Below, piece after piece: positions 1,528-15,776 of a DNA stretch of 64,000 nucleotides. Source of the stretch: an uncultured Legionella sp. (GTDB lineage Bacteria > Pseudomonadota > Gammaproteobacteria > Legionellales > Legionellaceae); the NCBI GenBank assembly GCA_945952115.1, contig CAMFHA010000001.1, positions 3,579-67,578 of the forward strand, given 5' to 3'. Both the position numbers and the translations under genes were made by a program. Numbering within the stretch: the first letter of the stretch is position 1; the number at the start of each line of letters is the position of its first letter. The notes under the pieces were generated by a model. That model worked only from the letters and a program-made list of their open reading frames with translations, searched no databases and was not told the DNA's origin.

Positions 1528-4215
1528 ATGCTGAATACGTTAATTAAGAAAATGTTTGGTAGCCGAAATGAGCGCACATTACGGCGTATGGAAAAGGCAG
1601 TAATGGCTATTAATGCTTTTGAACCAGAAATGAAGGCATTAAGTGATGCTGAACTTGCTGCCAAAACAGCTCAATTTAAAGCACGTTTCTCTGAAGGTGA
1701 ACGCCTTGATGAGCTACTTGCTGAAGCATTTGCAACGGTTAGAGAAGTTTCTGTCCGCACACTAGGCCTTCGTCATTTTGATGTGCAATTAATAGGTGGA
1801 ATGGTTTTACATGAGGGCAATATTGCAGAAATGCGTACTGGTGAAGGTAAGACTCTTGTAGCAACTTTACCAGCTTATTTAAATGCTATTAGCGGTCTTG
1901 GCGTTCATGTAGTTACTGTAAATGATTATTTGGCTAAGCGCGATAGTCAATGGATGAAGCCTGTATTTGAATTTTTAGGTCTTACTGTAGGTGTTATTTA
2001 TCCTGATATGGGACATGCTGAGAAACAAGCTGCTTATCGATGTGATATTGTTTATGGAACAAATAATGAATATGGTTTTGATTATTTACGCGACAATATG
2101 GCATTTAGCTTGGCAGATAAGGTGCAGCGCGAACTTAATTTTGCTATTGTCGACGAAGTGGATTCCATCCTTATTGATGAAGCGCGTACACCACTTATTA
2201 TTTCTGGCTCAGCAGAAGACAGCTCCGAACTGTATATTAAAATTAATAAACTAATTCCTCAATTAAAGAAACAAGAAGAAGAGGGAGATGATGGTGATTT
2301 CACCATTGATGAGAAACAAAAACAAGCACATCTTACAGATGCTGGCCATATTCACATTGAAAATCTATTAACAGAAGCTAAATTGCTTGAGCCAGGTGAA
2401 AGCCTCTATCATGCCAGTAACATTATGTTAATGCATCATGTTAATGCTGCGTTAAAAGCTCATGCTATGTTTCATCGTGATATTGATTACATTGTTAAAG
2501 ATAAACAAGTGGTTATTGTTGATGAACACACTGGACGTACGATGCCGGGACGTCGTTGGTCAGAAGGTTTACATCAAGCAGTGGAAGCCAAAGAAGGGGT
2601 AGCCATTCAAAATGAAAACCAAACTCTAGCATCCATCACCTTTCAAAATTTCTTTCGTATGTATAATAAATTATCTGGAATGACAGGTACTGCGGATACA
2701 GAAGCTTATGAATTCCAGCAAATTTATAATTTAGAAGTAGTTGTTATTCCCACTAATAAACAGATGATGAGAAAAGATGAGCCGGATTTAGTTTTTCTTA
2801 CACAAATGGATAAGTATCAAGCAATTATTGAGGATATTCGTGAATGTTCTCAAAGGAAACAACCTGTATTAGTAGGGACCGCTTCTATTGAAGCTTCTGA
2901 ACTTTTAAGTCAATTATTACAAAAAGTACAAATTAAACATCAAGTATTAAATGCAAAATTTCATGAAAAAGAAGCGCAAATCGTTGCTGAAGCAGGGCGG
3001 CCTGGTGCTGTAACTATTGCCACTAATATGGCAGGCCGTGGAACGGACATTGTTCTAGGAGGTAGTTTATCTGCTGATTTAGCTCAAGTGCCAGAAGAAG
3101 CAAGTCAAGAGCAGAAAGAGGCTTTAAAAGTAGAATGGCAAAAACGACATGATGAAGTTTTGGCTGCGGGTGGTTTACGCATTATTGGTTCTGAGCGTCA
3201 TGAGTCACGTCGTATTGATAATCAGTTGCGTGGACGTTCTGGTCGTCAAGGAGATGTTGGAAGTAGCCGTTTTTATTTATCTTTAGAAGATAATTTAATG
3301 CGCATTTTTGCTTCTGAGCGAGTAGCCAATATGATGCGTCGTTTAGGTATGAAGCCTGGTGAGCCCATTGAGCATTCTTTAGTAACTAAAGCAATTGAAA
3401 ATGCTCAGCGCAAATTAGAAGGTCATCATTTCGATGTGAGAAAACAATTATTAGATTATGACAATGTTGCTAATGCTCAACGCCAAGTAATTTATACTCA
3501 GCGTGCTTCTATGATGGAAATAGAAGATACCGAAGAAGTGGTTGCAATGATGAGAGAGGAGGTAATTACTGCTTTAGTCAACTCCTATATTCCGCCTCAA
3601 AGTCTTGAAGATCAATGGGAATCTAAAACTTTATCTGAGGTCTTAGAAGACGAATTTAAAATTAAGGCTGATGTAGCAGAATGGATTGAACAAGATCACA
3701 CCATTCAACCAGAGCAAATTAAAGAGAAAATTTTAGCTTTAGCTAATGCTCATTATAATGAAAAAGTAGCAAAAACAATGCGTCAAGTGATGTCTCAATT
3801 CGAAAAGTCTGTAATTTTACAAACCTTAGATAATCATTGGCGTGAGCATTTAGCTGCCATGGATCATTTAAGACAAGGCATTCATTTACGAGGTTATGCT
3901 CAAAAAGATCCTAAACAAGAATATAAAAGAGAAGCATTTACTCTATTTACAGAAATGCTTGATACCATCAAGCATGATATCACAAAGCTTATTTTATCAG
4001 TTGAAATTCAAAGCCAAGAAGATGTGCAAGCAGTAGAAGATCAGCGACGTGCAGATCAAATTCAAAAAATGAATTTAACTCATGAAAGTGCTTTGGAAAT
4101 AGAAGAAAATAGCGAGCAAACCTTTAGACGTCAAGAGAAAAAAATAGGCCGCAATGATCCATGTCCTTGTGGTTCTGGAAAAAAATATAAATCATGTCAT
4201 GGCAGTTTAGCATGA
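1528..4215 (+). CDS. secA: Preprotein translocase ATPase SecA
   Basis: 895 aa with [78 protein letters not shown] and a C-terminal Zn finger [19 protein letters not shown] lies 11 nt upstream of the ATG. Confidence 0.98.
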
Positions 4216-4637
4216 GCATTAAAGTAGCTGTTGCCATTATTACTGACGGTGAACAGCGTATTTTAATTACCCAACGTCCTTTAGATGTTCCTCAAGGGGG
4301 ATGTTGGGAATTTCCTGGTGGAAAGCTAGAAATTAATGAATCAGCTGAACATGCTTTAATAAGAGAAGTTAAAGAAGAACTTGGTATTGATGTAAAAAAA
4401 TATCAGTTGTTAGGAGAAATAGAGCACCAATATACTGATAAGCGAGTTTGTTTAATTATTTTTCATGTAAGCGAGTTTTCTGGTATAGCGTCTTGCCTAG
4501 AAGGACAACTAGGGCTTAAGTGGATTAATAAAGAGTTATTAAATCCTAATGATTTTCCTGAGGCTAATCGTGCTATCTTTAAATTATTGGTTGAGACCCG
4601 ACATTCCGCAGCACAGTATTTTTTAGATAAAAAGTGA
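4212..4637 (+). CDS. mutT: 8-oxo-dGTP diphosphatase (NUDIX hydrolase MutT)
   Basis: NUDIX box [27 protein letters not shown] 4212 overlaps the secA stop (ATGA), and secA-mutT synteny is classic. The last ~14 codons lie inside a palindromic element. Confidence 0.85.
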
Positions 4638-4745
4638 GTAAATTTGAATTTTAAAGCGCAGTTTACATACAAGTAAATGAGCATTTAAAATTCAAATTTA
4701 CTCACTTTTTAGCAAAAAAGACGAAGCTGCGGAATGTCGGTGAGA
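4593..4745. repeat. About 150-bp palindromic element spanning the mutT 3' end
   Basis: Perfect 27-bp inner arms at 4629-4655 and 4684-4710 (aaaaagtgagtaaatttgaattttaaa and its reverse complement). The outer arms include ccgacattccgcagc (about 4598-4612) and gctgcggaatgtcgg (4725-4739). Confidence 0.85.
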
Positions 4746-4787
4746 CTGAAATAAATACCTAGTAAATTGACGCCATTACCTAACTTT

Positions 4788-6590
4788 TTATGTAATTTTT
4801 ATATAATAATCCTGAGGAATATAATTCGTTAATTTCAAGCACCAAATAGAGTAATCCGATTTATTTTCTATTAAAGAAAAGCCTAATCTTTTATATAAAT
4901 CAGAAACAATTTTATTTTTAACGGAAGGGTAGTAATAACCGATGATTTGCTCAATTTCTAATGAGCGACAATATTCAATTAATAGATGAAACATAGCATA
5001 TTCCATCGTTCTTTTAAAAACTCTGCAACTCATTATCCATAGCTCAATATGACACTCTTTGTTAAGAATCTTCGAAATAATTACTGAAATAAGGCCATGA
5101 TCACCATAGCAGTCTGATAAACGCCCATATACATTTAGATAATTAGGATTTGATGAAATAGTTTCTATTTCTATTAAACTAAATAGCTTATTAGTTAAAT
5201 TAAATTGATGGGTTTTGTGGATAAGTTGAGTAATGCGTTGCCAATAGAGTGGAGTAAAGGGTTTAATTTCTGCTTTCATTTCTAAACTAGAAAGAAAATC
5301 AGCGTAATTTAAATGTTGAGATATATTTTGAATTGGAACAGATTTTATTTTGTAAAAATCATTTCGATTAATATCTTCCATTGAAAGCCCTGCTGTCTCA
5401 AAATAATAGTTTTTATCAATAAACTCTATAAAATTAATAACATCATTACCTACATTAGGTACTGTAACTTCAGGAAGAGCTTCTGTAACTATTTGGCGTT
5501 CAGCTTGGTTATCATCAATAAAAACAATACTATCTAGATGAATATTCAAATGATCAGCGATTTTTATTAGATTCTTATATTTGGGTTCCCAGTCTGCTTC
5601 GAAAGCAGCAAAATCATTTTCTTTTAATACAGAATCAGGATGTGTAAAACCCATTTTCGCATTCGCAAGATCATTTTTAGAGCAAACAGATAAAATAATC
5701 CCGCGATCTTTTAATGATTTAAGATAATGCTGAAATTCAGTATAAACTTCTGCTAAAGCAGATTCAATGCCAATAATTATTCCATCAAGCCCATCATCAC
5801 CTATTTGGCCGCCCCAGCACGTGTTATCTAAATCTAAGGCTAAACATTTTTTTGCTATTCCTAGAAGACTACCGATAAGAGCAGAAAGACTGTGAGCTAG
5901 ATGAGGAATAGCTTCATAGCTTAAAGCATATCGAGCAGAATACCATAATTGCTTATCAAACCACTTATTTAACCCTAGGCTTGCAGCTAAATAATTAATA
6001 TCGTGTATATATAAATAGTTTTTTTGTTGCGCTTCATGTGAAAAAAAACTATTTAAACAGTTAATATAACAGACCTGGCCATGAGGGTCTGAATTATCTA
6101 AATTTCCAAGAATACGATATTGAGGATAATCAAAATTATTTTGAATGATTGGACATTGATATTGAAGTAAAGAGGTCCAAATACGTCTATATTTTTCTTT
6201 CTCTTGGTTTAATAGTTCTTCAATTCTTGTCTGAGAATCTTTAAATTGAGGATAAAGTATTATATTTTTATAGCTAGTATGAATATAAATAATATCTGGT
6301 TTAAATTGTTCAAGGCCTTTATTTTCAAAGACAGCTTCTTCGTAAAACTTATTAAAATCTGACTCGTAAAATTCAGGTTTAATTCCTATTTTTAAAAGAA
6401 AAAGCTCTACAATATCTTTAACTGTTGAAGTGGTTGAGCCACTTAAGAAAGCAATTCGTTTGGGTATTAGTTGATTATTAAGTAATAACTCTCTTTTAAT
6501 AACACTTTTCTTTCTTAAAATTAAAGCAGAATCCAAAGGATAGTTCAGCGCAGAATTAAAAAATGAGCTGTTTAGATTATTTTTTTTCAA
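4788..6590 (-). CDS. FkbH-like HAD-IIIC phosphatase/acyltransferase protein
   Basis: HAD motif LALDLDNTCWGGQIGDDGLDGIIIG (DxDxT) plus a C-terminal GNAT-like block (WIMSCRVFKRTMEYAMF). Apparent TTG start with AAGGA upstream. Very AT-rich. Confidence 0.75.
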   Translation of the reverse strand: MKKNNLNSSFFNSALNYPLDSALILRKKSVIKRELLLNNQLIPKRIAFLSGSTTSTVKDIVELFLLKIGIKPEFYESDFNKFYEEAVFENKGLEQFKPDIIYIHTSYKNIILYPQFKDSQTRIEELLNQEKEKYRRIWTSLLQYQCPIIQNNFDYPQYRILGNLDNSDPHGQVCYINCLNSFFSHEAQQKNYLYIHDINYLAASLGLNKWFDKQLWYSARYALSYEAIPHLAHSLSALIGSLLGIAKKCLALDLDNTCWGGQIGDDGLDGIIIGIESALAEVYTEFQHYLKSLKDRGIILSVCSKNDLANAKMGFTHPDSVLKENDFAAFEADWEPKYKNLIKIADHLNIHLDSIVFIDDNQAERQIVTEALPEVTVPNVGNDVINFIEFIDKNYYFETAGLSMEDINRNDFYKIKSVPIQNISQHLNYADFLSSLEMKAEIKPFTPLYWQRITQLIHKTHQFNLTNKLFSLIEIETISSNPNYLNVYGRLSDCYGDHGLISVIISKILNKECHIELWIMSCRVFKRTMEYAMFHLLIEYCRSLEIEQIIGYYYPSVKNKIVSDLYKRLGFSLIENKSDYSIWCLKLTNYIPQDYYIKIT

Positions 6591-6657
6591 GGAAATGTCC
6601 TTAAAAAGTGAGCTAAACTACATGAGCAAAAATAAGCTTTAAAAACATGCGCGTTCT

Positions 6658-9543
6658 TTAATCTAAAAAAAGCTTATTCATATAATTTATAATTTGTTCA
6701 TGCAGACCTTTTTTCATAGTCGTATTTAAAATCACAACAAATTGTGAATCTAAATTATATATTCTTAAAAATACACCCAAGTTAATACCAAACTCTATTT
6801 CATTAGTAGTAGCATTCCAGTCAATATATTTATTGTGAATATATTCATTACTATTTAATTTATTAATATAGGTATACACTATAGGATGAAGTTGATCTGT
6901 AATTGAAAGATAATTTCGATCTATAAGCTCTTTCTCCCAAATTGCGGATAGTGCTGAATAACTCATATTTTTAAAATATAAAATAAATAATTTATTTAGT
7001 TCTTGAGCACCATCTAATAGGGTTTTATTTTTACTGTCATAAAAAATAGGTAAGCTAGTTGCTATATTAGTAATAAGAGTTTTAATATGTTCAATAGGTA
7101 AATTTCGATTTGAAAAGCTAACATAAAACATCAGTTTTGTGTTATTTATTAATTGTTGTATTGCTTGATTCAGTATCAATGCAAAAAGAACGCTATAGGG
7201 AATATTTATTAGCTTATTATTCGAAATATATTGATCGGTTTTTTCTTTTGTAATTAAAAAGCATGAATTTCGAGGCACTAAATCGATATCAAAAAGATGC
7301 CTAACTTGATTGTATTCAATGGGATTTATTTTTAATAATTCTTTTTCAAATTCATATAAAGAGTTATTAGTAGGCAGCCAAATTTCATTTATTTTATTTA
7401 AAGCTTTAATTTCTTCATTTTTAGGTAACTTACTCTCTTTATAACCTTCATAATTACGAAATAGTTCTTCACGAATCAGAAGAGCAGACCAACCATCTAA
7501 AGCAATATGATTAAAAGCAATAATTAAGAAGTTTTGCTTATTTTTTTTTTGCAAATAGATATAGACTAATCGCTCAGAATACGTAAAAACACTCAGTTTT
7601 GATCTATATTTTTTAAATAAAAGAGGAGTTTTTAACCAAAAATTAGTTTGAGATTCTGTTTTTTCAAAAAAATATTCATCCTTTATATTTACTAGTTTGC
7701 AAGACAGCATAAAATGTTGATCAATAGTTTGAGCAATAGCTAACTCTAACTTATCCAGATCAACTTTTTTATCTAGGCAAAAACTTGACACTAAGTAAAT
7801 TTCTCTTTTTTGTTGGATAAAATAAGCTTCTGATAACCAATGTAATTTAACAGCATGCTTTATTTTTGTATCTTTAAAGTTCATGGGGGTTAAATAAGAA
7901 TAAAGATCTTTAATTTTTGTATGCGCATTAATTCGTGAACTATCAAACCATTTGCCGGTTTTTTTTAAAAAAAATAAAGACAGTTCAATATAGTCAATGG
8001 ATTCAAGTCCTAAATTCTGAATTAGAGTGTTATTATCAATATCTTGATCTGGAAAAAATTTTTTAAAATACTGGTTTAAATCATTTTTCCGAGGAATACA
8101 GACTATTTTATTTAATGCAAGATAATCTATTTTCCCACTTTGGGTTTTGGGAAAATCTTCCACAAAATGGTAATGACTTGGGTGCATGTAATTAGGTAAA
8201 TGCTGCTTTAGAGTTACTTTAATTGTAGATAATAAATCTTTATCCTTTTGGTTTTTTTTAACAAATAAATGAATTTCATTTTCTTTTTGGTCATTTATAA
8301 TACAAGTAAATTGATGTACAGGGTAGTTTTTTCTAAGTAAATATTCCAGTTGATCCAAGTTGATGATTTGACCATAGAGTTTAATTAGTCGATGACTTCT
8401 TGTATGATAATATAATTGCTTTTGTATAATTTTAACGAAATCATTAGTTTTAATAAACAGTTTATTATCTATCAAAAAATAACTTTTTTTTGTTTGTTTT
8501 GTATCGAAATAGCCTGTGGCAATATCTCCTGCAATGTAGATTTCATATCCTTTTTCTTTTGTTACTTTTAATCTATAATCACAGCCTGGTCGTAATTTTT
8601 CTAAATGAAATCGCTCCTTTTCCGTGATTATTTTTGTGATCTTTTTATAAAAAGGAACCAGAAATTCAGTTGCCCCATAAAGATTATAAAAAATAGTATT
8701 TGGATTCACATAGGTGAGCCAATAATTAACAGCTTTATCATCTAGAGGTTCTCCGCTTAATAAAATTAAACGCACACCAATTAATTGGTTTTGTGCATTA
8801 TTATGTTCTATATGCTCAATCACTATTTTAAATAGAGTAGGGGTCATATTTAAAATAGTGATCTTGTTTTCTATTAATTCATTTAAGATAAAGTTTATTT
8901 TATTTGCTTGAGTTTTAATAAAAGATATTTTTGCGCCAGCTAAAAGAGGAATAAATAGAGGGCGTAACGAGGCTACAAAAGAAAGCTCTGTGTTAAATAA
9001 AAAATGATCTCCTTGAGTAAGAGTAAATTCTTGAATACCCCAATGAAGGTAGCGCTGAATTACTTCATAACGATAATGTACTGCTTTAGGAAGTTCTGTT
9101 GTTCCAGAAGTAAAAAATACAATACCGGGTAACCAGCAAAAATTAGGCTTAAGGTGGTTAGATCGATAATAAAAAAAATCACTTAATTGTTCTTTATGTA
9201 ATTTATCTTTAAATTCTGAATCAAATGATTTAACTAATTCCTCTTCAATTATTAATAAATCTACAGAAAAGGTAGATAAATAAGATATTAATAGTTCTGG
9301 TGCAGTAGAAGTATGTATGGGAATATAGGTTTTATTTTTTAGTACTAATGCATGACATAAGCACAGCATCTCTAAAGAAGGTGAACTGTAAATCATTACA
9401 GTATTTACTTCTAATGAATCTAAAAATTCACAATAATATTTTATCTTGTTTATAATCTCAGCATAAAAAAAATTTGTAGATGAAAAATCGTTATTTTGTA
9501 AGAATAATTTCTGTTCTAAAAATAAAGCTAGTTTATTTTTCAC
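6658..9543 (-). CDS. Stand-alone NRPS-like protein with adenylation, carrier and condensation domains
   Basis: A-domain cores FFTSGTTELPKAV, NLYGATE, IKTNDF and PKTQSGKIDY. Carrier motif LGLESIDYIEL. C-domain motif FNHIALDGWS (HHxxxDG with the first His replaced by Asn). Apparent GTG start. Confidence 0.8.
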   Translation of the reverse strand: MKNKLALFLEQKLFLQNNDFSSTNFFYAEIINKIKYYCEFLDSLEVNTVMIYSSPSLEMLCLCHALVLKNKTYIPIHTSTAPELLISYLSTFSVDLLIIEEELVKSFDSEFKDKLHKEQLSDFFYYRSNHLKPNFCWLPGIVFFTSGTTELPKAVHYRYEVIQRYLHWGIQEFTLTQGDHFLFNTELSFVASLRPLFIPLLAGAKISFIKTQANKINFILNELIENKITILNMTPTLFKIVIEHIEHNNAQNQLIGVRLILLSGEPLDDKAVNYWLTYVNPNTIFYNLYGATEFLVPFYKKITKIITEKERFHLEKLRPGCDYRLKVTKEKGYEIYIAGDIATGYFDTKQTKKSYFLIDNKLFIKTNDFVKIIQKQLYYHTRSHRLIKLYGQIINLDQLEYLLRKNYPVHQFTCIINDQKENEIHLFVKKNQKDKDLLSTIKVTLKQHLPNYMHPSHYHFVEDFPKTQSGKIDYLALNKIVCIPRKNDLNQYFKKFFPDQDIDNNTLIQNLGLESIDYIELSLFFLKKTGKWFDSSRINAHTKIKDLYSYLTPMNFKDTKIKHAVKLHWLSEAYFIQQKREIYLVSSFCLDKKVDLDKLELAIAQTIDQHFMLSCKLVNIKDEYFFEKTESQTNFWLKTPLLFKKYRSKLSVFTYSERLVYIYLQKKNKQNFLIIAFNHIALDGWSALLIREELFRNYEGYKESKLPKNEEIKALNKINEIWLPTNNSLYEFEKELLKINPIEYNQVRHLFDIDLVPRNSCFLITKEKTDQYISNNKLINIPYSVLFALILNQAIQQLINNTKLMFYVSFSNRNLPIEHIKTLITNIATSLPIFYDSKNKTLLDGAQELNKLFILYFKNMSYSALSAIWEKELIDRNYLSITDQLHPIVYTYINKLNSNEYIHNKYIDWNATTNEIEFGINLGVFLRIYNLDSQFVVILNTTMKKGLHEQIINYMNKLFLD

Positions 9544-9617
9544 TAGGATTTACTCTGTATAATACTTAGTTAAATTATAGATTAATATTAAAAGAGCAGT
9601 TAAGAAATTTTATAAAA

Positions 9618-9652
9618 GGCTGGTGCTGAGCTTCGCAAGCTTAGCGCCAGTC
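9618..9652. terminator. Imperfect hairpin downstream of the 9681..10970 gene, T-rich on both sides
   Basis: ctggtgctgagctt-cgca-agcttagcgccag. The two non-Watson-Crick positions are G:U on + strand RNA but A:C on - strand RNA, so function on the - strand is uncertain. Confidence 0.35.
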
Positions 9653-9680
9653 TTTATTACTTTTGATATAGAGTGATCTC

Positions 9681-10970
9681 TTACGAAAATATAGTAGCGA
9701 TTTTATCTATAGCCTCGGTATTCTCTGATTCTATTTCTTCATTTGTAAGTTCTAAGGGGGCTCTCTGCTGTATTTCTTCTTGTAATTTCGCTTCTAGTTG
9801 CATCATAATTGATTCTGGTAATTTCATTTCTGTTTCTGCAATATTAACTACTTTACCATCTAAATATAATTGACCTTCTCTAACATCCATTTCTACCTGT
9901 TTATACTCAGTGGGTAATTCATTTTCTGGTGTTGGAACAAAGGGAACACCACAAAAAACGGTCACACCATCTCCTAAGCGAATTCCAGTAAGCAAGGGTT
10001 TTTGAGAGGAGTAGCCATAAGAGCCAATAGCAACGCAGGCACTCCAGATTAACTTGTAAGCTAAATCTAAAGGAATACCTACAATGGTGCCCATTCCCTG
10101 CCCAACAAGCCCCATACTGAAGCTTAGAATATGAGCTAGGCTAATACTGCAAAAAGCGCTAATTACACGCTCAGCAATTGCAGGAGCAAATAAAGCAACT
10201 CCTGCAGGTCCAGCATAATTACACACTAATAAAGTACTACCAATTAATGCTGTAAATTTAGTTTTGTGCGGTAACGCATTGGTTGAATGACTAAGCACAT
10301 CACCACTAATATATCCTATTGTTGCTCCTGCATAAGAACCTGCAGCTCCAAAAAGTTTTTGAGTGATATTGGTAATGGGGTAATTAGCATAAGGATCTTT
10401 TTTAATTTTATTAATTGTTCTTGTACATAAATACGTTTGAAAGTTATTCCATTCTTTTTCAGTAAATTCCGTAAGTTTTGCTTTTTTAAGAATTGAATTA
10501 GCCTGATCTAAAGCTGAAATTGATGAGGTAATTAATCTTTTCGCTGCTAAAAAACACATTTCTTTATCTTCTTCATCCAGATAATTTTGATTGGTAATAC
10601 CTAAATCTTTATCTAAAAGTGTGTAAAGAACAGATTTTTCTTCAGGAGTACGCCATGTATAAGTTTGTTCAATTTGCTCCTTAATATACAAAACGGCTGC
10701 AAACATCACTCTTGAGGCGGTAGTACTTGCTGCGAGCTCATCTAGAGTTTCAATTTTCTCTTCTTCAAAGGTATTAGGTTTTAAAATAACTCGAACTTTT
10801 TCTAAAAATTCAATTTGTGATTTTCTTACAGCGATATCTACACCACCTAAAACAGTAGGCATACCAAAAAAGGAAGGAGAATTATTTAAATCAATTTTTT
10901 TTATTTCTTGATATTTATCTCGGAGAAAATCTAACTTTACTATAGTATTAGGGGCGAGAATAAAGCGCAT
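9681..10970 (-). CDS. Hypothetical membrane protein with a Gly/Ala-rich hydrophobic core and an acidic C-terminal tail (effector-like)
   Basis: Start set at ATG 10970, preceded by AGGAGG at 6 nt. Gly-rich hydrophobic stretch (GAAGSYAGATIGYISG...GLVGQGMGTIVGIPLDL). Glu-rich C-terminus (LELTNEEIESENTEAIDK). Confidence 0.55.
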   Translation of the reverse strand: MRFILAPNTIVKLDFLRDKYQEIKKIDLNNSPSFFGMPTVLGGVDIAVRKSQIEFLEKVRVILKPNTFEEEKIETLDELAASTTASRVMFAAVLYIKEQIEQTYTWRTPEEKSVLYTLLDKDLGITNQNYLDEEDKEMCFLAAKRLITSSISALDQANSILKKAKLTEFTEKEWNNFQTYLCTRTINKIKKDPYANYPITNITQKLFGAAGSYAGATIGYISGDVLSHSTNALPHKTKFTALIGSTLLVCNYAGPAGVALFAPAIAERVISAFCSISLAHILSFSMGLVGQGMGTIVGIPLDLAYKLIWSACVAIGSYGYSSQKPLLTGIRLGDGVTVFCGVPFVPTPENELPTEYKQVEMDVREGQLYLDGKVVNIAETEMKLPESIMMQLEAKLQEEIQQRAPLELTNEEIESENTEAIDKIATIFS

Positions 10971-11242
10971 GTAGACCTCCTGTCTGGTAATATGCATCGA
11001 GTATTCTTTTATAATACTGAGTCGTTGATTAAATGCAATCACCTTTGATCTTTTTTTATTAAATGGTTGTAATTATTTTTCGAAAATTATTAAACTTATA
11101 ATTTAATCTATTGAAATGATGCTTTTTTTAATGATTATGGTACTGTTAACAATTCATAAGAGTTGAGCCAATATTCAGGGCATTAATTTAATGGCAATGC
11201 TTGCAGGACAAGAGCTATTTTTTTAATTGAAGAGCAAATTAT

Positions 11243-12097
11243 ATGAGTAAGTTAACCGTTTATTTTTCATTACTTCGAATCTCGCATTGGAGTAAAGCAG
11301 TATTTGTGCTCTTTGGTTTTTTTTATACACCTATTCATGGGTATTTTGTTCCCGCATTGCTTGCTGCTTTGGCGTTTTGTCTTATTTCTAGTGCAGTATA
11401 TATTTACAATGATATTCAGGATAGAGCAGAAGATCGTATTCATCCTTATAAAAAGAAACGTCCTCTAGCAAGTAAAGAGGTTTCTCTCTCAGAAGCCTTT
11501 GCTCTATTATTAGTGTTGCTTAGTGTGGGGCTCGTTATCGGTTGGTTAATTTCAAAGCAATTGGCGATGATTCTTATTACCTATTTGCTTATTAATTTAG
11601 CTTATAACCATGTATTCAAATTAGTGCCTATTTTAGATGTGTTATGTATTGCTTTGGGCTTTATGTTACGTGTTTTAGCAGGAACTATAGGTATTGGATT
11701 ATCCCTTTCCATTTGGTTGACCAGTGCAGCCACTTTACTTAGTTTATTTATAGCACTTAATAAAAGAAGATTAGAAGCACAACTTGGACTTAAGCATTCA
11801 ACTAGAAAAGTGCTTAAGAACTACCATCCTTTACTATTGCAACGCCTAATATTTGGAACAGGAGCTGCTTGTTTCTCAGTTTATTTATTCTATATTATTT
11901 ACGCTCGAGGTGAGTCTTTTTATTTTATATTGACATTACCTTTTGCGGCTTTTGCATTATGGCGTTTTGCCTGGCTTTCAACCCAGAATGTAGATAATGA
12001 CGATCCCGTTGATGTATTTATTAATGATAGATTATCAAGAGTTAATCTTTGGTGTTTTGCTGTATTAACTTTTATGGCATTAACACATACTGTTTGA
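11243..12097 (+). CDS. UbiA-family prenyltransferase, decaprenyl-phosphate phosphoribosyltransferase (DPPR synthase)-like
   Basis: Polytopic membrane protein carrying NDIQDRAEDRIHPYKKKRPLAS. This is the NDxxDxxxD motif followed by the HPxKxxRPxA signature of the DPPR-synthase branch. Confidence 0.7.
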   Translation: MSKLTVYFSLLRISHWSKAVFVLFGFFYTPIHGYFVPALLAALAFCLISSAVYIYNDIQDRAEDRIHPYKKKRPLASKEVSLSEAFALLLVLLSVGLVIGWLISKQLAMILITYLLINLAYNHVFKLVPILDVLCIALGFMLRVLAGTIGIGLSLSIWLTSAATLLSLFIALNKRRLEAQLGLKHSTRKVLKNYHPLLLQRLIFGTGAACFSVYLFYIIYARGESFYFILTLPFAAFALWRFAWLSTQNVDNDDPVDVFINDRLSRVNLWCFAVLTFMALTHTV

Positions 12098-12173: not shown

Positions 12174-15100
12174 CTAATTTAAAAGCTTGTTGTAAGATAA
12201 ATTAGTTGAATCATTGGAGTTTTGAAGAGGTTTTTCTTTAAAAAAAACGAGGTTAGATAAAGGAGTTTGCAAGTTTACAAGAAAAGCTTGGATACTTGGT
12301 GTTTTTAGGATCTCCCTCGTTAAAGGATTTTGAGACAATAGTGGTTCATTAGTTTTGTAACGAGCTGAACTATAATTGCTTTTTCCGGTAAGTAGCTCTC
12401 TGAACCAATGGACGCTTTTATGTAGTGCTGGCTCGGTTTCTCTTGCAAGAATATCACTCAATTTAAAATAATGGGATAAAAATGCTTCAGAGTCATTAGA
12501 AAGCAATAGCTCATGTGCCTCGGTTTTATATTCATCCGATAAAAAAGTTTGTGCTATTGGCAGTAGTTTCAGAGGATACACTTTTTTTATCTCTGGAATA
12601 ATAAATTTCAAGTCTGTCCCACTTTTAACAAGTACATTAAATGGCACCTCTAACAAAAGTGATAAAATCATTTTCACTGATTCAATATTTTTTGATGCGA
12701 TATGTAAAACTGTATTGCCATTTCTATTTTTTTCTTTGATAGCGGTAAGGCGTTCATGCTCTGGCAAAAGCGATAAAATCATTTTTAATGCTTCAGGATC
12801 ATTGGCTATCCTGTGTAAAACTGTATCTCCATTTTTGTTTTTTTCATTGACAGCAGCAAGACGTTCATGTTCTGGTAAAAGCGATAAAATCATTTTTAAT
12901 GCCTCAGGATTTCTGAATGCCTTATGTAATAATGTATCGCCATTTCGATCTTTTTCCGTAATAGCGGCAAAGCGTTCCTGCTCAGGGTAAAGTGATAAAA
13001 TTATCTCTAATGATTTTGGATGATTTGCTGCTCGATGTAAAACCGAATTGCCATTTTTATTTTTTTCTTTAACGGCGGTAAGTCGTTCATTTTCAGGATA
13101 AAACGATAAAATTAGTTCTAATGCTTCATCATTGCTTGCTGCTCTATGTAAAACGCTATCGTCGTTGCTGTTTTTTTCTTTGACAGCAACAAGGCGTTCC
13201 TGTTCTGGGTAAAATGATAAAATCAGTTCTAAGGCTTCAGGATGAGCTGCCGCACTATGTAAAAGCGTATCGCCTTTTTTGTTTTTTTCTTTGATAGCTG
13301 TAAGGCGTTCATTTTCAGGATAAAGCGATAAAATTAATTTTAATGCTTCTGCATTGCTTGCTGCTTTATGTAAAACGGTATCTTCATTGTCATTTTTTTC
13401 TTTGATGGCGGTAAGGCGTTTATGCTCTGGGTATAGCGATAAAATTAGTTCTAATGCTTCAGCATTGTTTGCGGCTTTATGTAAAACGGTATCGTCATTG
13501 CTGTTTTTTTCTTTGACAGCCTCAAGACGCTCATGTTCCGGTAAAAGTGATAAACTTAGCTCTAAGGTTTCAGGAATATTGGCTATCCGATGTAAAATCG
13601 CATTGCCGGATTGGTCTTTTTCTTTGACAGCACTAAGGCGCTCATGTTCTGGTAACAGTGATAAAATTATTTTTAATGATTCCGGATTGTATATTGCTCT
13701 ATGTAAAAGCATAGTGCCATTTTGATTTTTTTCTGTGATAGCAATCAGCCGCTCATTTTCAGGATAAAGAGATAAAATTAGTTCTAATGCTTCAGGATGA
13801 TTTACTGTTCTATGTAAAAGTCTATCACCATCTCGGTCTTTTTCTTTGACAGCAGGAAGATGTTCATTTTCAGGGTAAAATGATAAAATTATTCTTAATG
13901 CTTCAGGATGATTTGCTGCTTTATATAAGAGTGTATTGCCATATTGGTCTTTTTCTTTGAGAACACCAAGACGCTCAGGCTCTGGATAAAGCGATATAAG
14001 GAAATTTAATGATTTTGGATAAGTGATTGCTCGATGTAGTAGTGTTTCTTTTTTTTCATTCTTTTGGAGGATTTCGTTAAGTCCTTTATCTGAAAAATAG
14101 CGTCTAATTAGTGTTGTATTTTCATATTCAATAGCAAGAACTAAAAGTGCTTGTTCATTGATAGTGCATTCCTGCCAATTTGAAATAAAAAACGTAGTTT
14201 TTAATGTCTGAATAACCCATTCATGTAATGCTTCATTAGATTGTACAATTAAGCAGGCTAGTAGTTTGCGTTGCGTCTGTTTTTGTAGTGCGTCTGATGT
14301 ATAATTCTCATAACTTGCTTCAAAATGAAAAAAATCGAAACATTCAAGAGTTAATTGCCCAGTTTGGGACATTTCATTGATGATAAATGACTGGGCTTCA
14401 TGAGTATCTTGAGGATAATGTAAATTTACAGGACTTAGTTTTTGAAGGACATGCCACTGCTTTAGTTTTACTCGATAACTATCCATGATGCTTATCAGGC
14501 TATGGGAACTCAATGGAAGATTTTCTTTAATATCCTTTTGAAAGTCACTCAATAACGAATGGTGTAATCGTTCACACAACACACCAGTATGCCTATTGCT
14601 TTTAAAATCTTGAATCACTTTATCAGGAATATCGATAGAATGATGATGCATTAAATAAATCAATACTTGCTCATAAATGTGTTCTTGGTAAGAGAGAAGT
14701 TGAGGTTTTTTCGCACATTGAAGAGCTTGCACAAAATCTTGAGAGGTCACAAGATGTTGTTTAATTAAATACAATAACATTTTTTCACTGAGGTTTTTAA
14801 ATAATTTAGGTCTGCTCGTTAACATTATCCATAAAGAAACCTCTTTGAGTTTAAGTACTTTCATTGCTTGTTCATCAGATAGGTATTGGCTTAGCTTTTT
14901 TAATAAGGCAAAACGATGCTCTTCTGCTATTTTGGTTTGAATATTTTTATATAAAAGAAAAATTATTCCTGTTGGCAAAGCGTTTACTTTGTCTAAAAGT
15001 AAGGTTTCTATACGCTGAGAATGGCTATCAAGTAACACTTTTAGAAAAAAAAATGGCCCTAAAAAATCATATAGTCTTTTCCAGTTAGTTGAGGTTACTG

Positions 15101-15776
15101 TAAATGAGAATAAAGGGGCGTCTTGTGGTGGTGTAAAAGGTGTTTTTGCCTGATTTGATTTTATTTTACCTGATAAAGTCAGATTTACGCCTAGACCAAG
15201 CGCACTGGGTATCTCTATGATATTCGCTTGTTCAAGTAACCAGTTTAATTCAGTGGAAGAATAAGATACAGTGGATAATAATTCATAAACCTTCTGAATC
15301 TCTGATATTTGTTCAACATGTGCTACACAATAACGATGCAATAAACCAGAATCAAGCAATGCTTTAGCACTAATTTGTCGTTCCAGTAAGACTTGAATGA
15401 GTGCCACCATTAAAATAGGGTTTGATGCTTTTTCCTCTAACAATACTAATAAAGTCAAAGGATGCTCTTCTTCACTTAACCCAGATAAAAACCTTTCTTT
15501 CCAATAAGAAACTATCTCTTGAATTAATTCATCATCTTCTTCATTCAGACTCAATAAAGCTACTAACTCATCTATTGGTTGAGATGAGGATAGCTGTTCC
15601 ATCAATAGTCTATAGAAAGAGAGTTCTTTTTGTTCTGCTATAAAGATTTTATGGTGTTCAGTTCTAAGTTCTTCAAAATTAATATGACGTTGTAATTTTA
15701 TAATTTCTTTTTCTATATTTTCCTTAGAAACAAAAGGAAAATTTGAAAGCGTTTGGAGTTTTGATATCACTTTCAT
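12174..15776 (-). CDS. 1200-aa protein with 13 tandem 37-aa ankyrin-like repeats (effector-like)
   Basis: Repeat unit ERLxAxKEKNxxGDTxLHxAAxxPEALxLILSLYPE. The G-T-LH-AA core is that of ANK repeats. N-terminal ~560 aa and C-terminal ~150 aa are unique sequence. Confidence 0.8.
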   Translation of the reverse strand: MKVISKLQTLSNFPFVSKENIEKEIIKLQRHINFEELRTEHHKIFIAEQKELSFYRLLMEQLSSSQPIDELVALLSLNEEDDELIQEIVSYWKERFLSGLSEEEHPLTLLVLLEEKASNPILMVALIQVLLERQISAKALLDSGLLHRYCVAHVEQISEIQKVYELLSTVSYSSTELNWLLEQANIIEIPSALGLGVNLTLSGKIKSNQAKTPFTPPQDAPLFSFTVTSTNWKRLYDFLGPFFFLKVLLDSHSQRIETLLLDKVNALPTGIIFLLYKNIQTKIAEEHRFALLKKLSQYLSDEQAMKVLKLKEVSLWIMLTSRPKLFKNLSEKMLLYLIKQHLVTSQDFVQALQCAKKPQLLSYQEHIYEQVLIYLMHHHSIDIPDKVIQDFKSNRHTGVLCERLHHSLLSDFQKDIKENLPLSSHSLISIMDSYRVKLKQWHVLQKLSPVNLHYPQDTHEAQSFIINEMSQTGQLTLECFDFFHFEASYENYTSDALQKQTQRKLLACLIVQSNEALHEWVIQTLKTTFFISNWQECTINEQALLVLAIEYENTTLIRRYFSDKGLNEILQKNEKKETLLHRAITYPKSLNFLISLYPEPERLGVLKEKDQYGNTLLYKAANHPEALRIILSFYPENEHLPAVKEKDRDGDRLLHRTVNHPEALELILSLYPENERLIAITEKNQNGTMLLHRAIYNPESLKIILSLLPEHERLSAVKEKDQSGNAILHRIANIPETLELSLSLLPEHERLEAVKEKNSNDDTVLHKAANNAEALELILSLYPEHKRLTAIKEKNDNEDTVLHKAASNAEALKLILSLYPENERLTAIKEKNKKGDTLLHSAAAHPEALELILSFYPEQERLVAVKEKNSNDDSVLHRAASNDEALELILSFYPENERLTAVKEKNKNGNSVLHRAANHPKSLEIILSLYPEQERFAAITEKDRNGDTLLHKAFRNPEALKMILSLLPEHERLAAVNEKNKNGDTVLHRIANDPEALKMILSLLPEHERLTAIKEKNRNGNTVLHIASKNIESVKMILSLLLEVPFNVLVKSGTDLKFIIPEIKKVYPLKLLPIAQTFLSDEYKTEAHELLLSNDSEAFLSHYFKLSDILARETEPALHKSVHWFRELLTGKSNYSSARYKTNEPLLSQNPLTREILKTPSIQAFLVNLQTPLSNLVFFKEKPLQNSNDSTNLSYNKLLN
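12645..14075 (-). repeat. About 13 tandem 111-bp coding repeats inside the ankyrin-like gene
   Basis: Period of 111 nt. Adjacent units share long identical strings, for example aaaagcgataaaatcatttttaatgc at 12771 and 12881. Confidence 0.85.

What the first reader, a model, noticed from the sequence alone, without database searches (positions are those of the whole stretch)
4788..9543. Orphan two-gene cassette: stand-alone A-T-C NRPS-like enzyme plus an FkbH-like loader, wedged between mutT and effector-like genes
Gene 6658..9543 encodes one adenylation domain (SGTTELPK, NLYGATE, PKTQSGK), one carrier domain (LGLESIDYIEL) and a terminal condensation domain (NHIALDGWS, with the catalytic second His kept). 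Sixty-seven bp downstream is an FkbH-type HAD-IIIC/GNAT protein (DLDNTCWGGQIGDDG). FkbH enzymes are known to load glycolysis-derived C3 units onto carrier proteins. The only carrier in view is the T domain of the A-T-C protein. That suggests a minimal assembly line making an acyl or aminoacyl-glyceryl type ester or amide. Both genes are strikingly AT-rich relative to secA/mutT and use non-ATG starts. There is no thioesterase, PPTase, MbtH or transporter alongside. The product and acceptor cannot be predicted from here.
Basis: partly seen in the sequence, partly recalled or inferred. Interest (0 to 1): 0.65.

Follow-up and report, generated by a model that had tools for sequence, protein, structure and literature searches.

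The report
Legionella NRPS-like enzyme with FkbH loader
Two adjacent, intact genes in a Legionella-like chromosome encode a one-module NRPS-like enzyme (A-T-C) that does not activate a normal amino acid and an FkbH-type glycerate loader; together they look like a stripped-down copy of a small, uncharacterised Legionella-specific cassette that probably makes an acylated glycerate.

Summary
ORF 6658-9543(-) is a complete A-T-C protein and ORF 4788-6590(-) a complete FkbH-type protein. They lie 67 bp apart, use GTG and TTG starts, and are the two most AT-rich of the 32 ORFs I measured.

- The A domain has Val where every amino-acid-activating A domain has Asp235, and Arg at position 239. This pocket is nearly identical in all 27 family members, so the substrate is probably a non-amino carboxylic acid.
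- The pair is a reduced version of a larger Legionella cassette, not a true orphan. Two other lineages place an orthologous A-T-C next to a stand-alone T-C paralogue, FkbH, and a methyltransferase and/or a small ACP. L. shakespearei has T-C + MT + FkbH + ACP without the A-T-C. FkbH plus one T-C unit is the invariant core. The ACP that accompanies FkbH elsewhere is absent from the window.
- Most other A-T-C family members sit with O-methyltransferases, TauD, PvcA-type isonitrile synthase or a trans-AT PKS, not with FkbH.

The closest known logic is vioprolide initiation (acyl-T + FkbH-T + ester-forming C). The product, the acid and the carrier used are inferred. I rate it a new variant of a known kind, of moderate interest.

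The parts
6658..9543 (-). A-T-C NRPS-like gene (961 aa, GTG start)
   Evidence: ORF list and translation. Its N-terminus aligns with 26 homologues. Full-length AF2 model has pLDDT 84.1 and hits LgrA/DhbF A-T-C at Foldseek E 1e-44.
8104..9543 (-). Adenylation domain (residues 1-480). Core motifs are intact: TSGTTELPK, NLYGATE, D368, R382/K388, and K471 in SGK. The Asp235 position is V190 and position 239 is R194.
   Evidence: Pfam AMP-binding 88.5 bits and AMP-binding_C. The best NCBIfam hit is DltA-like at 141 bits, far below cut-off. F-V-A-S aligns on F-D-x-S in two LgrA A domains and in an L. pneumophila NRPS. Pocket columns are near-identical in 27 members. Codons checked.
7879..8091 (-). 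Carrier (T) domain, residues about 485-555. Ser515 (codon 7999-8001) lies in LGLESIDY.
   Evidence: Ser515 and Asp517 are invariant in 27 sequences. The motif aligns on LgrA PCP GGDSI. PP-binding scores 16.2 bits, E 0.013, below cut-off. In the model Ser515 sits at the start of helix 515-529.
6661..7866 (-). C-terminal condensation domain, residues about 560-961. The motif is N-H679-IAL-D683-G-W (His codon 7507-7509).
   Evidence: H679, D683 and W685 are invariant. Pfam Condensation scores 24.1 bits, below cut-off, on the N-lobe only. The C-only AF2 model has pTM 0.85 and a complete C fold, TM 0.64-0.74 to Cy, SrfA-C and LgrA C. An exhaustive profile search shows a small isolated clade.
6591..6657 (-). 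67-bp intergenic spacer with an AAGGA ribosome-binding site (6598-6602), 7 nt before the TTG start
   Evidence: Read directly from the sequence. No terminator-like site was found in the spacer.
4788..6590 (-). FkbH-like gene (600 aa, TTG start)
   Evidence: Homologues start at the same position, also with TTG or GTG. All 150+ invariant columns of an 18-sequence cross-phylum alignment are kept.
5889..6386 (-). FkbH N-terminal ('NEX') domain, residues 69-234
   Evidence: Pfam PF21211 at 53.6 bits. Colinear with PDB 3SLR (BF1531), E 6e-50. The literature suggests NEX may help transfer to carriers.
4875..5855 (-). FkbH domain proper (HAD-IIIC phosphatase plus C-terminal acyltransferase-like part), residues 246-572. 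Contains D253-L-D255-N-T257 (5832-5834 is D253), S304-K-N, D359-D360, and S521-C522-R523 (5025-5027 is C522).
   Evidence: TIGR01686 at 233.6 bits against a cut-off of 146.65, and TIGR01681 at 61.4 bits. Invariants; codons.
9574..9603 (-). Promoter-like site (TTAACT-18-TATAAT) upstream of the A-T-C start
   Evidence: Consensus scan, 10 of 12 matches. This is a pattern match only; such sites are not enriched in this AT-rich region.
9615..9655 (.). G+C-rich 19-bp-stem hairpin between the upstream effector-like gene and the cassette; probably the terminator of gene 9681-11042
   Evidence: Terminator scan and sequence.
4598..4740 (.). Very long hairpin (about 60-bp stem) between the convergent mutT and FkbH 3' ends, overlapping the last 40 nt of mutT. 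Probably a bidirectional terminator that marks the end of the unit.
   Evidence: Inverted repeats I1/I2. RNA fold gives -75.6 kcal/mol, z = -13.9. It is the only copy in the window.

Best explanation
The two genes form one transcription unit. They are a reduced copy of a Legionella-restricted cassette whose invariant core is an FkbH-type loader plus a T-C unit.

Proposed mechanism:
1. The A domain adenylates a carboxylic acid that lacks an alpha-amino group and thioesterifies it onto the phosphopantetheine of Ser515. The acid's identity is unknown. A conserved Arg at pocket position 239 hints at an anionic or polar group.
2. The FkbH-like enzyme takes 1,3-bisphosphoglycerate, dephosphorylates it in its HAD domain, holds D-glycerate as a thioester (candidate Cys522) and passes it to a carrier thiol. 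In relatives that carrier is a dedicated 80-87 aa ACP. Here, where the ACP gene is missing, it would be the T domain of the A-T-C protein acting in trans, or an unlinked ACP.
3. The C-terminal condensation domain (His679) joins the two units, most likely as an O-acyl-glycerate ester, and/or off-loads the product onto a further nucleophile.

Shown here: domain architecture, conservation of catalytic residues, the non-Asp pocket, and gene linkage in three lineages. Inferred: substrates, which carrier FkbH uses, ester versus amide, the order of steps, and the release step.
For: - Architecture and catalytic residues are intact and under selection.
- The two genes are co-directional and 67 bp apart, with an RBS and no terminator between them. 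A hairpin follows the upstream gene and a large hairpin follows FkbH.
- Linkage recurs. L085 has A-T-C | T-C | FkbH | ACP. L097 and L098, two contigs that join through a split T-C gene, have A-T-C | T-C | MT | FkbH. The window has A-T-C | FkbH.
- These three A-T-Cs form one clade in an NJ tree. Their FkbH genes, together with that of L. shakespearei, are the four closest FkbH relatives (60-69% identity).
- Across the four cassettes the only constant is FkbH plus one T-C unit. The ACP is missing in two, the A domain in one (L090), and the stand-alone T-C in one (the window). That makes a T domain a credible FkbH acceptor.
- Precedent: in NRPS modules FkbH domains load glycerate on T domains. 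In vioprolide a fatty acid activated by a FAAL is esterified to that glycerate by an ester-bond-forming C domain (PMC8949500). AerB combines FkbH-PCP with an O-methyltransferase (PMC10143770), which echoes the MT in L090 and L097.
- The absence of a PPTase is expected. Legionella genomes carry a single broad-spectrum Sfp-type PPTase (PMC5126622).
Against: - No biochemical data exist for any member.
- Everywhere else but L097, FkbH is coupled to its own small ACP. A T domain may therefore not be its natural partner, and an ACP could lie outside the 64-kb window.
- One T domain cannot hold both substrates at once, so the two-gene version needs action in trans or iteration.
- The A-domain pocket is the same in family members that have no FkbH and instead sit with OMT, TauD or PvcA genes, or alone. 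The A-T-C enzyme can evidently work without FkbH.
- The C-domain subtype (ester- versus amide-forming) could not be resolved.
- The catalytic role of Cys522 rests on recalled OzmB biochemistry, not on an alignment made here.
Confidence: 0.45

Rival explanations
1. The two genes are independent neighbours. The A-T-C enzyme works alone: it activates its acid and the C domain transfers it to a free nucleophile. The FkbH protein serves an unlinked ACP in a different pathway. The adjacency reflects a shared history of horizontal transfer, not a shared product.
For: - Most A-T-C homologues have no FkbH nearby. L. spiritensis and P0016 sit beside a PKS and OMTs. P0004, P0007 and P0021 sit beside OMT/TauD/MT/PvcA genes. 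L. massiliensis and L001 have neither.
- The pocket residues are identical whatever the context.
- FkbH homologues occur without an A-T-C: L090, L092 and L094.
Against: - Three independent lineages have the A-T-C next to the FkbH cluster, at three different chromosomal sites: beside mutT, beside the rplQ operon, and beside mfd. All three fall in one A-T-C clade.
- In the window the genes are 67 bp apart in one apparent operon.
- The window lacks the ACP that FkbH would otherwise need.
Confidence: 0.2
2. The cassette is an envelope or glycan decoration module. FkbH loads glycerate on the T domain, and the C domain transfers the glyceroyl group (or the A-domain acid) onto an amino or hydroxyl group of a cell-surface sugar or lipid, rather than making a diffusible small molecule.
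For: - The about-590-aa FkbH family is 53-69% identical across phyla (Legionella, Aliarcobacter, an archaeon).
- It sits in contexts that suggest polymer modification. L094 has FkbH+ACP+MaoC+SDR+polysaccharide deacetylase. L092 has ACP+MBOAT+unknown+FkbH.
- A polysaccharide deacetylase gene lies beside the A-T-C in L098.
- N-glyceroyl groups on bacterial nonulosonic acids are known, and as of 2017 their genes were unassigned (PMC5378307).
Against: - No glycosyltransferase, deacetylase, MBOAT or flippase lies near the window cassette.
- lpxB is 38 kb away.
- None of the four Legionella T-C/FkbH cassettes lies in a recognisable LPS or capsule locus.
Confidence: 0.15
3. The pair is a decaying remnant. 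The fuller cassette (A-T-C, T-C, MT, FkbH, ACP) has lost its ACP, T-C and MT, and what remains no longer makes a product.
For: The window has the fewest parts of the four cassettes. The two genes are the most AT-rich in the window.
Against: - Both ORFs are full length.
- The A-T-C keeps every family-invariant residue, and the FkbH keeps all 150+ invariant columns of a cross-phylum alignment.
- The start sites match those of homologues, and the RBS is intact.
- A second lineage (L097/L098) also lacks the ACP.
Confidence: 0.1
4. An aminoacyl-glyceryl product, one of the first reader's two options. The A domain activates an alpha-amino acid that is then joined to glycerate.
For: The best-scoring named models are DltA and NRPS amino-acid adenylation domains.
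Against: - The Asp that binds the alpha-amino group (Asp235 of the FDxS motif) is Val, Ile or Ala in all 27 members.
- The DltA and TIGR01733 scores are far below their cut-offs: 141 against 476, and 110 against 317.
Confidence: 0.05

Closest known systems
Vioprolide (and cystomanamide) initiation: FAAL/acyl-carrier + ester-bond-forming C + FkbH-T (PMC8949500)
   Same: An acyl-activating ANL domain with its carrier, an FkbH unit that supplies carrier-bound glycerate, and a condensation domain that joins the two. In vioprolide the bond is an ester.
   Different: - In vioprolide all parts are domains of a giant myxobacterial PKS/NRPS that carries on to build a peptide. Here they are two (in relatives three to five) discrete proteins with no downstream modules.
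- The activating domain here is NRPS-type, not a FAAL.
- The second carrier is missing in the window.
- Sequence relationship to VioA was not tested.
Discrete FkbH / OzmB / tetronate-type glyceryl-ACP synthases (TIGR01686)
   Same: The whole FkbH domain scores above the curated cut-off. The HAD motifs, the N-terminal extension (FkbH_N/NEX) and a conserved Cys in the C-terminal part are all present.
   Different: - The window has no cognate ACP.
- There are no FkbI/K/G-type enzymes (methoxymalonyl route) and no FabH-like enzyme (tetronate route).
- The subfamily is the widespread about-590-aa form also found in non-PKS contexts.
- The only solved relative is an uncharacterised Bacteroides protein, 3SLR.
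AerB loading modules of suomilide/varlaxin (FkbH-PCP with O-methyltransferase and sulfotransferase; PMC10143770)
   Same: FkbH loads glycerate on an NRPS-type carrier and a methyltransferase tailors it. Compare the MT immediately upstream of FkbH in L090 and L097.
   Different: - AerB is cyanobacterial, with fused domains, and is followed by amino-acid modules.
- The window copy has no MT.
Stand-alone or terminal ester-forming/release C domains (SgcC5, enacyloxin Bamb_5915, BurF C; PMC12304814). Also the fungal T-C didomain Fum14, recalled from my own knowledge.
   Same: A C domain that uses a carrier-bound acyl donor and a non-peptidyl nucleophile. The T-C didomain format matches the Legionella stand-alone T-C paralogues. 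SgcC5 and the enacyloxin C domain are among the structural matches.
   Different: They match no better than ordinary LCL, Cy or E domains (E about 1e-17 for all, 11-15% identity), so membership in an ester-forming subtype is not established.
Legionella 'Cluster F': a single-module A-T-C NRPS, reported as the most prevalent BGC in 15 Legionella species, product unknown (Tobias et al. 2016, PMC5126622)
   Same: Same genus, same A-T-C description, patchy distribution attributed to horizontal transfer, and no known product.
   Different: Identity with this family was not established. My homology search found family members in L. massiliensis, L. spiritensis and uncultured Legionella, none of which is in that study's species set. 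The L. pneumophila hit (P0048) is a generic C-A NRPS with a normal FDVS motif.
Fungal CrmA (isocyanide synthase-A-T-transferase; PMC9381783)
   Same: It is an analogue for the other branch of this family. There the A-T-C sits with PvcA-type isonitrile synthase, a TauD-type dioxygenase and methyltransferases. The A domain would act on an acid whose amino group has been converted, which fits the missing Asp235. CrmA products include polyol esters.
   Different: CrmA is a fused fungal protein. The window has no PvcA, TauD or OMT gene.

Membership tests
NRPS module (A-T-C) | ANL adenylation core motifs (A3 P-loop, A5 YGxTE, A7 Asp, A8 Arg/Lys, A10 Lys) | tested here: met
   TSGTTELPK, NLYGATE, D368, R382/K388 and K471 are all invariant or nearly so in 27 sequences. 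Pfam AMP-binding scores 88.5 bits. Structural matches to A domains have TMt 0.7-0.78.
NRPS module (A-T-C) | Asp235 (FDxS) that binds the substrate's alpha-amino group | tested here: not met
   F-V-A-S aligns on F-D-x-S in three independent alignments. The position is V, I or A in all 27 members.
NRPS module (A-T-C) | Carrier domain with a phosphopantetheinyl Ser at the start of helix 2 | tested here: met
   Ser515 is invariant and aligns on the LgrA PCP Ser. It lies at the N-terminus of helix 515-529 in the model. Pfam PP-binding is sub-threshold at 16.2 against 20.8 bits. Actual modification cannot be tested here.
NRPS module (A-T-C) | Condensation fold with HHxxxDG (catalytic second His) | tested here: met
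   N-H679-IAL-D683-G, with H, D and W invariant. The fold is complete with TM 0.64-0.74. The Pfam score is below cut-off at 24.1 against 30.6 bits.
NRPS module (A-T-C) | C-domain functional subtype (LCL, DCL, starter, ester-forming) | tested here: inconclusive
   The PDB profile search gives only weak hits to BacC, McyB, SrfA and TycB C domains. Foldseek does not separate the subtypes. NaPDoS-type classification is not available.
FkbH family (TIGR01686) | Whole-domain score above the curated cut-off | tested here: met
   233.6 bits against 146.65, covering 320 of 323 profile positions.
FkbH family (TIGR01686) | HAD phosphatase motifs (DxDxT; S/T; K; DD) | tested here: met
   D253-L-D255-N-T257, S304-K305-N306 and D359-D360 are invariant in 18 cross-phylum sequences.
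FkbH family (TIGR01686) | Conserved Cys in the C-terminal part that carries the glyceryl thioester | tested here: inconclusive
   An invariant S521-C522-R523 is present. Its equivalence to the OzmB catalytic Cys rests on memory, with no alignment to a characterised FkbH. Three other Cys are also invariant (C258, C513, C541).
FkbH family (TIGR01686) | Cognate carrier protein encoded alongside | tested here: not met
   tblastn with the L085 ACP finds nothing in the 64-kb window (best E 1.3). The ACP is present in L085, L090, L092 and L094 and absent in L097.
FkbH family (TIGR01686) | Use of 1,3-bisphosphoglycerate and formation of glyceryl-S-carrier | not testable with these tools
   Needs an enzyme assay.
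Vioprolide-type acyl-glycerate initiation | Acyl-activating domain + acyl carrier + C domain + FkbH + a second carrier for glycerate | tested here: inconclusive
   Four of the five parts are in the window. The second carrier is absent there but present in the sister cassette L085. Ester formation is untested.
Methoxymalonyl-ACP or tetronate pathways | FkbI/FkbK-type dehydrogenases and FkbG OMT, or a FabH-like condensing enzyme, next to FkbH+ACP | tested here: not met
   None among the window ORFs scanned.
   Eleven A-T-C contexts and five FkbH contexts were read (plus L001/L002). None is a recognisable LPS or capsule locus, though deacetylase or MBOAT neighbours occur in L094, L098 and L092.

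The most novel reading that the evidence does not exclude
The FkbH enzyme has dispensed with its dedicated ACP and loads glycerate directly, in trans, onto the T domain of a one-module NRPS-like enzyme whose own A domain loads a non-amino acid onto the same carrier. The single T-C unit is then used twice, iteratively or across subunits, to build and release an O-acyl-glycerate. This would be a two-protein assembly line with two different loaders competing for one carrier. The product would be a Legionella-specific small molecule encoded among Dot/Icm effector genes, with a possible role in the host or amoeba interaction.
Probability: 0.15. Interest if true: 0.75.

Novelty: new variant of a known kind. 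Interest (0 to 1): 0.5.

Why it matters
Very few Legionella natural products have been worked out, although the genus carries many small NRPS and PKS clusters (PMC5126622). This family of roughly 35 cluster representatives at 50% identity (about 960-aa A-T-C and about 500-aa T-C proteins) is, among the named sources, seen only in Legionella. I found no paper that characterises it. Its adenylation pocket (Val at 235, Arg at 239) does not fit the standard amino-acid-binding pattern. If the proposed coupling is right, the window holds the smallest natural version of the 'acyl + FkbH-glycerate + C domain' logic, known so far only inside giant myxobacterial and cyanobacterial megasynthases. That makes it an easy two-protein system for testing how FkbH enzymes choose carriers and how C domains make esters. 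The side observation that the same A-T-C family is embedded in PvcA-type isonitrile clusters elsewhere in the genus gives a second, testable lead for the acid substrate.

Tried and rejected
- The genome-contig scan with the family alignment chose generic NRPS motifs.
- Two metagenome scans, with the window A-T-C and with FkbH P0065, returned nothing useful.
- A search for an ACP or ACP remnant in the window found nothing, including in the 150 bp downstream of FkbH.
- A search for PvcA, TauD, OMT, MT or T-C homologues in the window found nothing.
- C-domain subtyping was uninformative, both by PDB profile search and by Foldseek on a C-only model.
- The third homology search, with the C-domain profile, added only five fragments.
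- Rfam found nothing credible on 4300-11300. A plant miRNA model picked up the hairpin at E 0.12.
- No flanking direct repeats suggest a recent insertion.
- Literature searches for FkbH plus Legionella and for Legionella isonitrile/NRPS characterisation found no paper on this family.
- I considered that the family is the published 'Cluster F' and could neither confirm nor exclude it.
- I considered that the 660-aa gene upstream of the L. massiliensis A-T-C is a divergent FkbH and rejected it. It has no similarity to FkbH and only weak P-loop hits.
- I considered a Dot/Icm-translocated A-T-C and did not pursue it. The C-termini are not conserved in any telling way, and no tool here tests translocation.
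Full report
**1. What is in the sequence**

The window is a 34% GC chromosomal segment of a Legionella-like organism. It carries core genes: dus, secA 1528-4215, mutT 4194-4637, hemB, tamAB, mutS, recA, alaS and lpxB. Effector-like genes are interspersed among them: a SoDot-IcmSS-domain protein at 9681-11042, a 1200-aa ankyrin protein, a patatin-like protein, and a 2144-aa protein with a SecA_DEAD-like region.

Between mutT and the first effector-like gene lie two co-directional ORFs on the minus strand. One is 6658-9543 (961 aa, GTG start) and the other 4788-6590 (600 aa, TTG start). They are 67 bp apart, with an AAGGA ribosome-binding site at 6598-6602 and no terminator-like site in the gap. 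Homologues start at the same aligned positions, also with non-ATG codons.

A G+C-rich hairpin (9615-9655) and a promoter-like site (9574-9603) precede the first gene. A very long hairpin at 4598-4740 (-75.6 kcal/mol, z = -13.9) follows the second gene and overlaps the end of the convergent mutT. The pair therefore looks like a self-contained operon.

The two ORFs are the most AT-rich of the 32 I measured: 26.4% and 29.4% GC against 34.9 +/- 2.3%.

**2. The A-T-C protein**

- **A domain.** Pfam calls AMP-binding (88.5 bits) and AMP-binding_C above threshold.
- **T and C domains by sequence.** Condensation scores only 24.1 bits (cut-off 30.6) and PP-binding 16.2 bits (cut-off 20.8). On sequence models alone these two domains are sub-threshold.
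- **Three further results settle the architecture.**
  - A profile of 27 homologues aligns colinearly with the A-T-C stretch of LgrA. It places LGLESIDY on the PCP GGDSI and HHIALDGWS on HHILLDGLS.
  - The AlphaFold model (pLDDT 84.1) aligns over about 1000 columns with LgrA and DhbF A-T-C crystal structures at E 1e-44 to 1e-40. Ser515 sits at the start of a helix, as in PCPs.
  - A C-domain-only model (pTM 0.85) is a complete condensation-superfamily fold, with TM 0.64-0.74 to Cy, SrfA-C and LgrA C domains.
- **Conserved residues.** Ser515, His679, Asp683, Lys471 and the other adenylation core residues are invariant across the family.

The adenylation pocket is not that of an amino-acid-activating domain. 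In the universal FDxS motif, the Asp that binds the alpha-amino group aligns with Val190. This holds in two LgrA A domains and in a pairwise BLAST against a generic L. pneumophila NRPS, where FDVSVW pairs with FVASLR. Position 239 is Arg194.

Across all 27 members the aligned pocket columns are almost unchanged: F-[VIA]-A-S-L-R, T/S, L-L-S, L, P, K. I read this as a conserved, non-degenerate pocket for a carboxylic acid without an alpha-amino group. The acid cannot be named from these data. Positions 330/331 are uncertain because of a gap in the alignment.

**3. The FkbH-like protein**

It passes the curated NCBIfam FkbH-domain model: 233.6 bits against a cut-off of 146.65, over 320 of 323 positions. 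It also has the HAD-IIIC signature and the FkbH N-terminal domain.

It belongs to a very widespread subfamily of about 590 aa, with more than 3600 hits. The subfamily is 53-69% identical from Legionella to Aliarcobacter and an archaeon.

The window copy keeps all 150+ invariant columns of an 18-sequence cross-phylum alignment. These include DLDNT, SKN, DD and an S-C522-R motif in the C-terminal part. The only solved relative is an uncharacterised Bacteroides protein, 3SLR.

That FkbH enzymes convert 1,3-bisphosphoglycerate into carrier-bound glycerate is established knowledge for the family and is summarised in PMC8949500. It was not tested for this subfamily.

**4. Relatives and their neighbourhoods**

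The A-T-C family is small. The word-indexed search gave about 30 full-length members at 31-59% identity. An exhaustive HMM search with the C-domain profile gave about 35 representatives before the list turns into giant NRPSs that score through many weak C-domain hits.

All named members are Legionella: L. massiliensis, L. spiritensis and Legionella MAGs. The same search also recovers stand-alone T-C proteins of about 500 aa, which are paralogues of the T-C half (30-37% identity).

A-T-C contexts fall into three groups.
- **(a) FkbH-linked.**
  - The window has A-T-C and FkbH.
  - L085 has A-T-C, T-C, FkbH and an 87-aa ACP.
  - L097 and L098 are two contigs of one sample that join through a split T-C gene. 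Together they give polysaccharide deacetylase, A-T-C, T-C, methyltransferase and FkbH, with no ACP.
- **(b) Tailoring- or isonitrile-linked.**
  - The neighbours are one or two Methyltransf_2 O-methyltransferases, a TauD-type dioxygenase and a second methyltransferase.
  - In the fullest versions there is also a DIT1_PvcA isonitrile synthase, an FMN-dependent dehydrogenase and a PaaK-like ligase.
  - In three loci a trans-AT PKS of more than 3700 aa lies alongside.
- **(c) No recognisable partner.** L. massiliensis and L001.

In an NJ tree the three FkbH-linked A-T-Cs form one clade, and the group (b) members lie in the other large clade.

On the FkbH side, the four closest homologues (60-69% identity) are exactly those linked to T-C or A-T-C genes. 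They include L. shakespearei, which has T-C, MT, FkbH and ACP but no A-T-C. More distant FkbH genes sit with ACP+MBOAT (L092) or with ACP+MaoC+SDR+deacetylase (L094).

A small ACP with a WDSL motif, 35-57% identical between loci, accompanies FkbH in four of the six loci and is often translationally coupled to it. It is absent from the window (tblastn best E 1.3) and from L097.

Across the four Legionella cassettes, the only constant is FkbH plus one T-C unit.

**5. Most likely mechanism**

The best-supported reading has three steps (confidence about 0.45).
1. The A domain loads a non-amino acid on Ser515.
2. FkbH supplies glycerate as a thioester to a carrier.
3. The C-terminal C domain joins the two, probably as an O-acyl-glycerate ester, and/or releases the product.

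The logic has a direct precedent. In vioprolide biosynthesis a FAAL-activated fatty acid is esterified to FkbH-loaded, T-bound glycerate by an ester-bond-forming C domain (PMC8949500). AerB loading modules combine FkbH-PCP with an O-methyltransferase (PMC10143770), like the MT next to FkbH in L090 and L097. A list of characterised ester-forming C domains, and the idea that the FkbH N-terminal extension helps hand glycerate to carriers, come from PMC12304814.

In L085 the split system has every part of the vioprolide scheme. In the window the second carrier is gone. FkbH must therefore use the A-T-C T domain in trans or an ACP encoded elsewhere.

The absence of a PPTase in the cassette is expected, because Legionella has a single broad-spectrum Sfp-type enzyme (PMC5126622).

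What is shown: architecture, conserved catalytic residues, the non-Asp pocket, operon-like arrangement, and clade-specific linkage. What is inferred: both substrates, the carrier used, the bond type, the order of steps, and the release step.

**6. Rival readings**

| Rival | Confidence | For | Against |
|---|---|---|---|
| Independent neighbours | 0.2 | Many A-T-C genes have no FkbH, and the pocket is the same in all contexts | Linkage recurs at three different chromosomal sites within one clade |
| Envelope or glycan decoration | 0.15 | Deacetylase and MBOAT neighbours of more distant FkbH genes; N-glyceroyl sugars whose genes are unknown | No glycan genes near the window cassette |
| Decaying remnant | 0.1 | Fewest parts of the four cassettes | Both ORFs fully conserved |
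| Aminoacyl product | 0.05 | Best named models are amino-acid adenylation domains | The missing Asp235 |

**7. Comparison with what is known, and novelty**

The protein is an NRPS-type A-T-C by every structural criterion. It fails the one sequence feature that defines amino-acid activation. The second protein is a member of the FkbH family by the curated model but lacks its usual carrier.

The pair works most like the vioprolide/cystomanamide initiation logic, but as discrete proteins with no downstream assembly line.

A 2016 survey reported a single-module A-T-C NRPS ('Cluster F') as the most prevalent BGC in 15 Legionella species, with unknown product. I could not establish whether it is this family. 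The species sets do not overlap, and the only L. pneumophila hit is a generic NRPS. I found no paper that characterises the family.

I rate it a new variant of a known kind and give it an interest of 0.5. It is a real, intact and unusual little system with a testable mechanism, but no feature lies outside known thiotemplate chemistry.

Noticed in passing
window 4598-4740: Very long near-perfect hairpin (about 60-bp stem, -75.6 kcal/mol, z = -13.9). It overlaps the last 40 nt of mutT and lies between the convergent mutT and FkbH genes. It is the only copy in the window. It could be a bidirectional terminator or a palindromic mobile element.
   Followed up: partly
window 11243-12097 (+); 32176-32892 (-) and 32889-34190 (-): A UbiA-family protein scores above cut-off for decaprenyl-phosphate phosphoribosyltransferase (386.7 bits against 234). 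About 20 kb away lies an overlapping (4 bp) FAD_binding_4 + short-chain dehydrogenase pair that resembles DprE1/DprE2. Together they suggest a polyprenyl-phospho-arabinofuranose-type pathway in a Legionella-like genome.
   Followed up: no
L095 1-16488; L096 1-12242; also L081, L086, L088, L002: In other Legionella lineages the same A-T-C family sits in a cluster with a PvcA-type isonitrile synthase, an FMN-dependent dehydrogenase, a PaaK-like ligase, two Methyltransf_2 O-methyltransferases, a TauD-type dioxygenase and another methyltransferase. In three loci a trans-AT PKS of more than 3700 aa is adjacent. This looks like an uncharacterised isonitrile-type BGC, and fungal CrmA (ICS-A-T-transferase) is a possible analogue.
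   Followed up: partly
L092 6800-13147 (Legionella, multi-species protein P0081): Gene order is 82-aa ACP, MBOAT, 474-aa unknown, FkbH, thiolase. This is a Dlt-like layout in which FkbH replaces the DltA-type loader, suggesting transfer of a glycerate-derived acyl group across the membrane onto an envelope polymer.
   Followed up: no
L094 10001-15129 (Aliarcobacter cryaerophilus): Gene order is FkbH, ACP (51% identical to the Legionella ACP), MaoC dehydratase, SDR, unknown, polysaccharide deacetylase. The FkbH+ACP pair is 54% identical across phyla, which suggests a conserved and frequently transferred module whose role outside polyketide pathways is undescribed. N-glyceroyl sugar decoration is a candidate.
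   Followed up: no
L097 1-660 and L098 4092-4994: Two contigs from the same run (DRR666269) end inside the same T-C gene and overlap by the peptide IINFHHIILD. They therefore join into one locus: deacetylase, A-T-C, T-C, MT, FkbH, mfd.
   Followed up: yes
window 40471-46905 (+): A 2144-aa ORF whose only domain hits are a SecA_DEAD-like/helicase region at residues about 1320-1870. It is AT-rich (31% GC) and effector-like, with no function assigned.
   Followed up: no
window 30008-31714 (-) and 12174-15776 (-): A patatin-like phospholipase (568 aa) and a 1200-aa protein with C-terminal ankyrin repeats. Both are typical of Dot/Icm effector repertoires and support a Legionellales origin for the window.
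   Followed up: no
L086 5023-5283 (-): The 86-aa ORF directly after the A-T-C gene in this locus reads like the C-terminal fragment of a transposase/integrase (…NWLRPHGSLKGKPP…) and is not a carrier protein. This hints at mobile-element activity next to the cluster.
   Followed up: no
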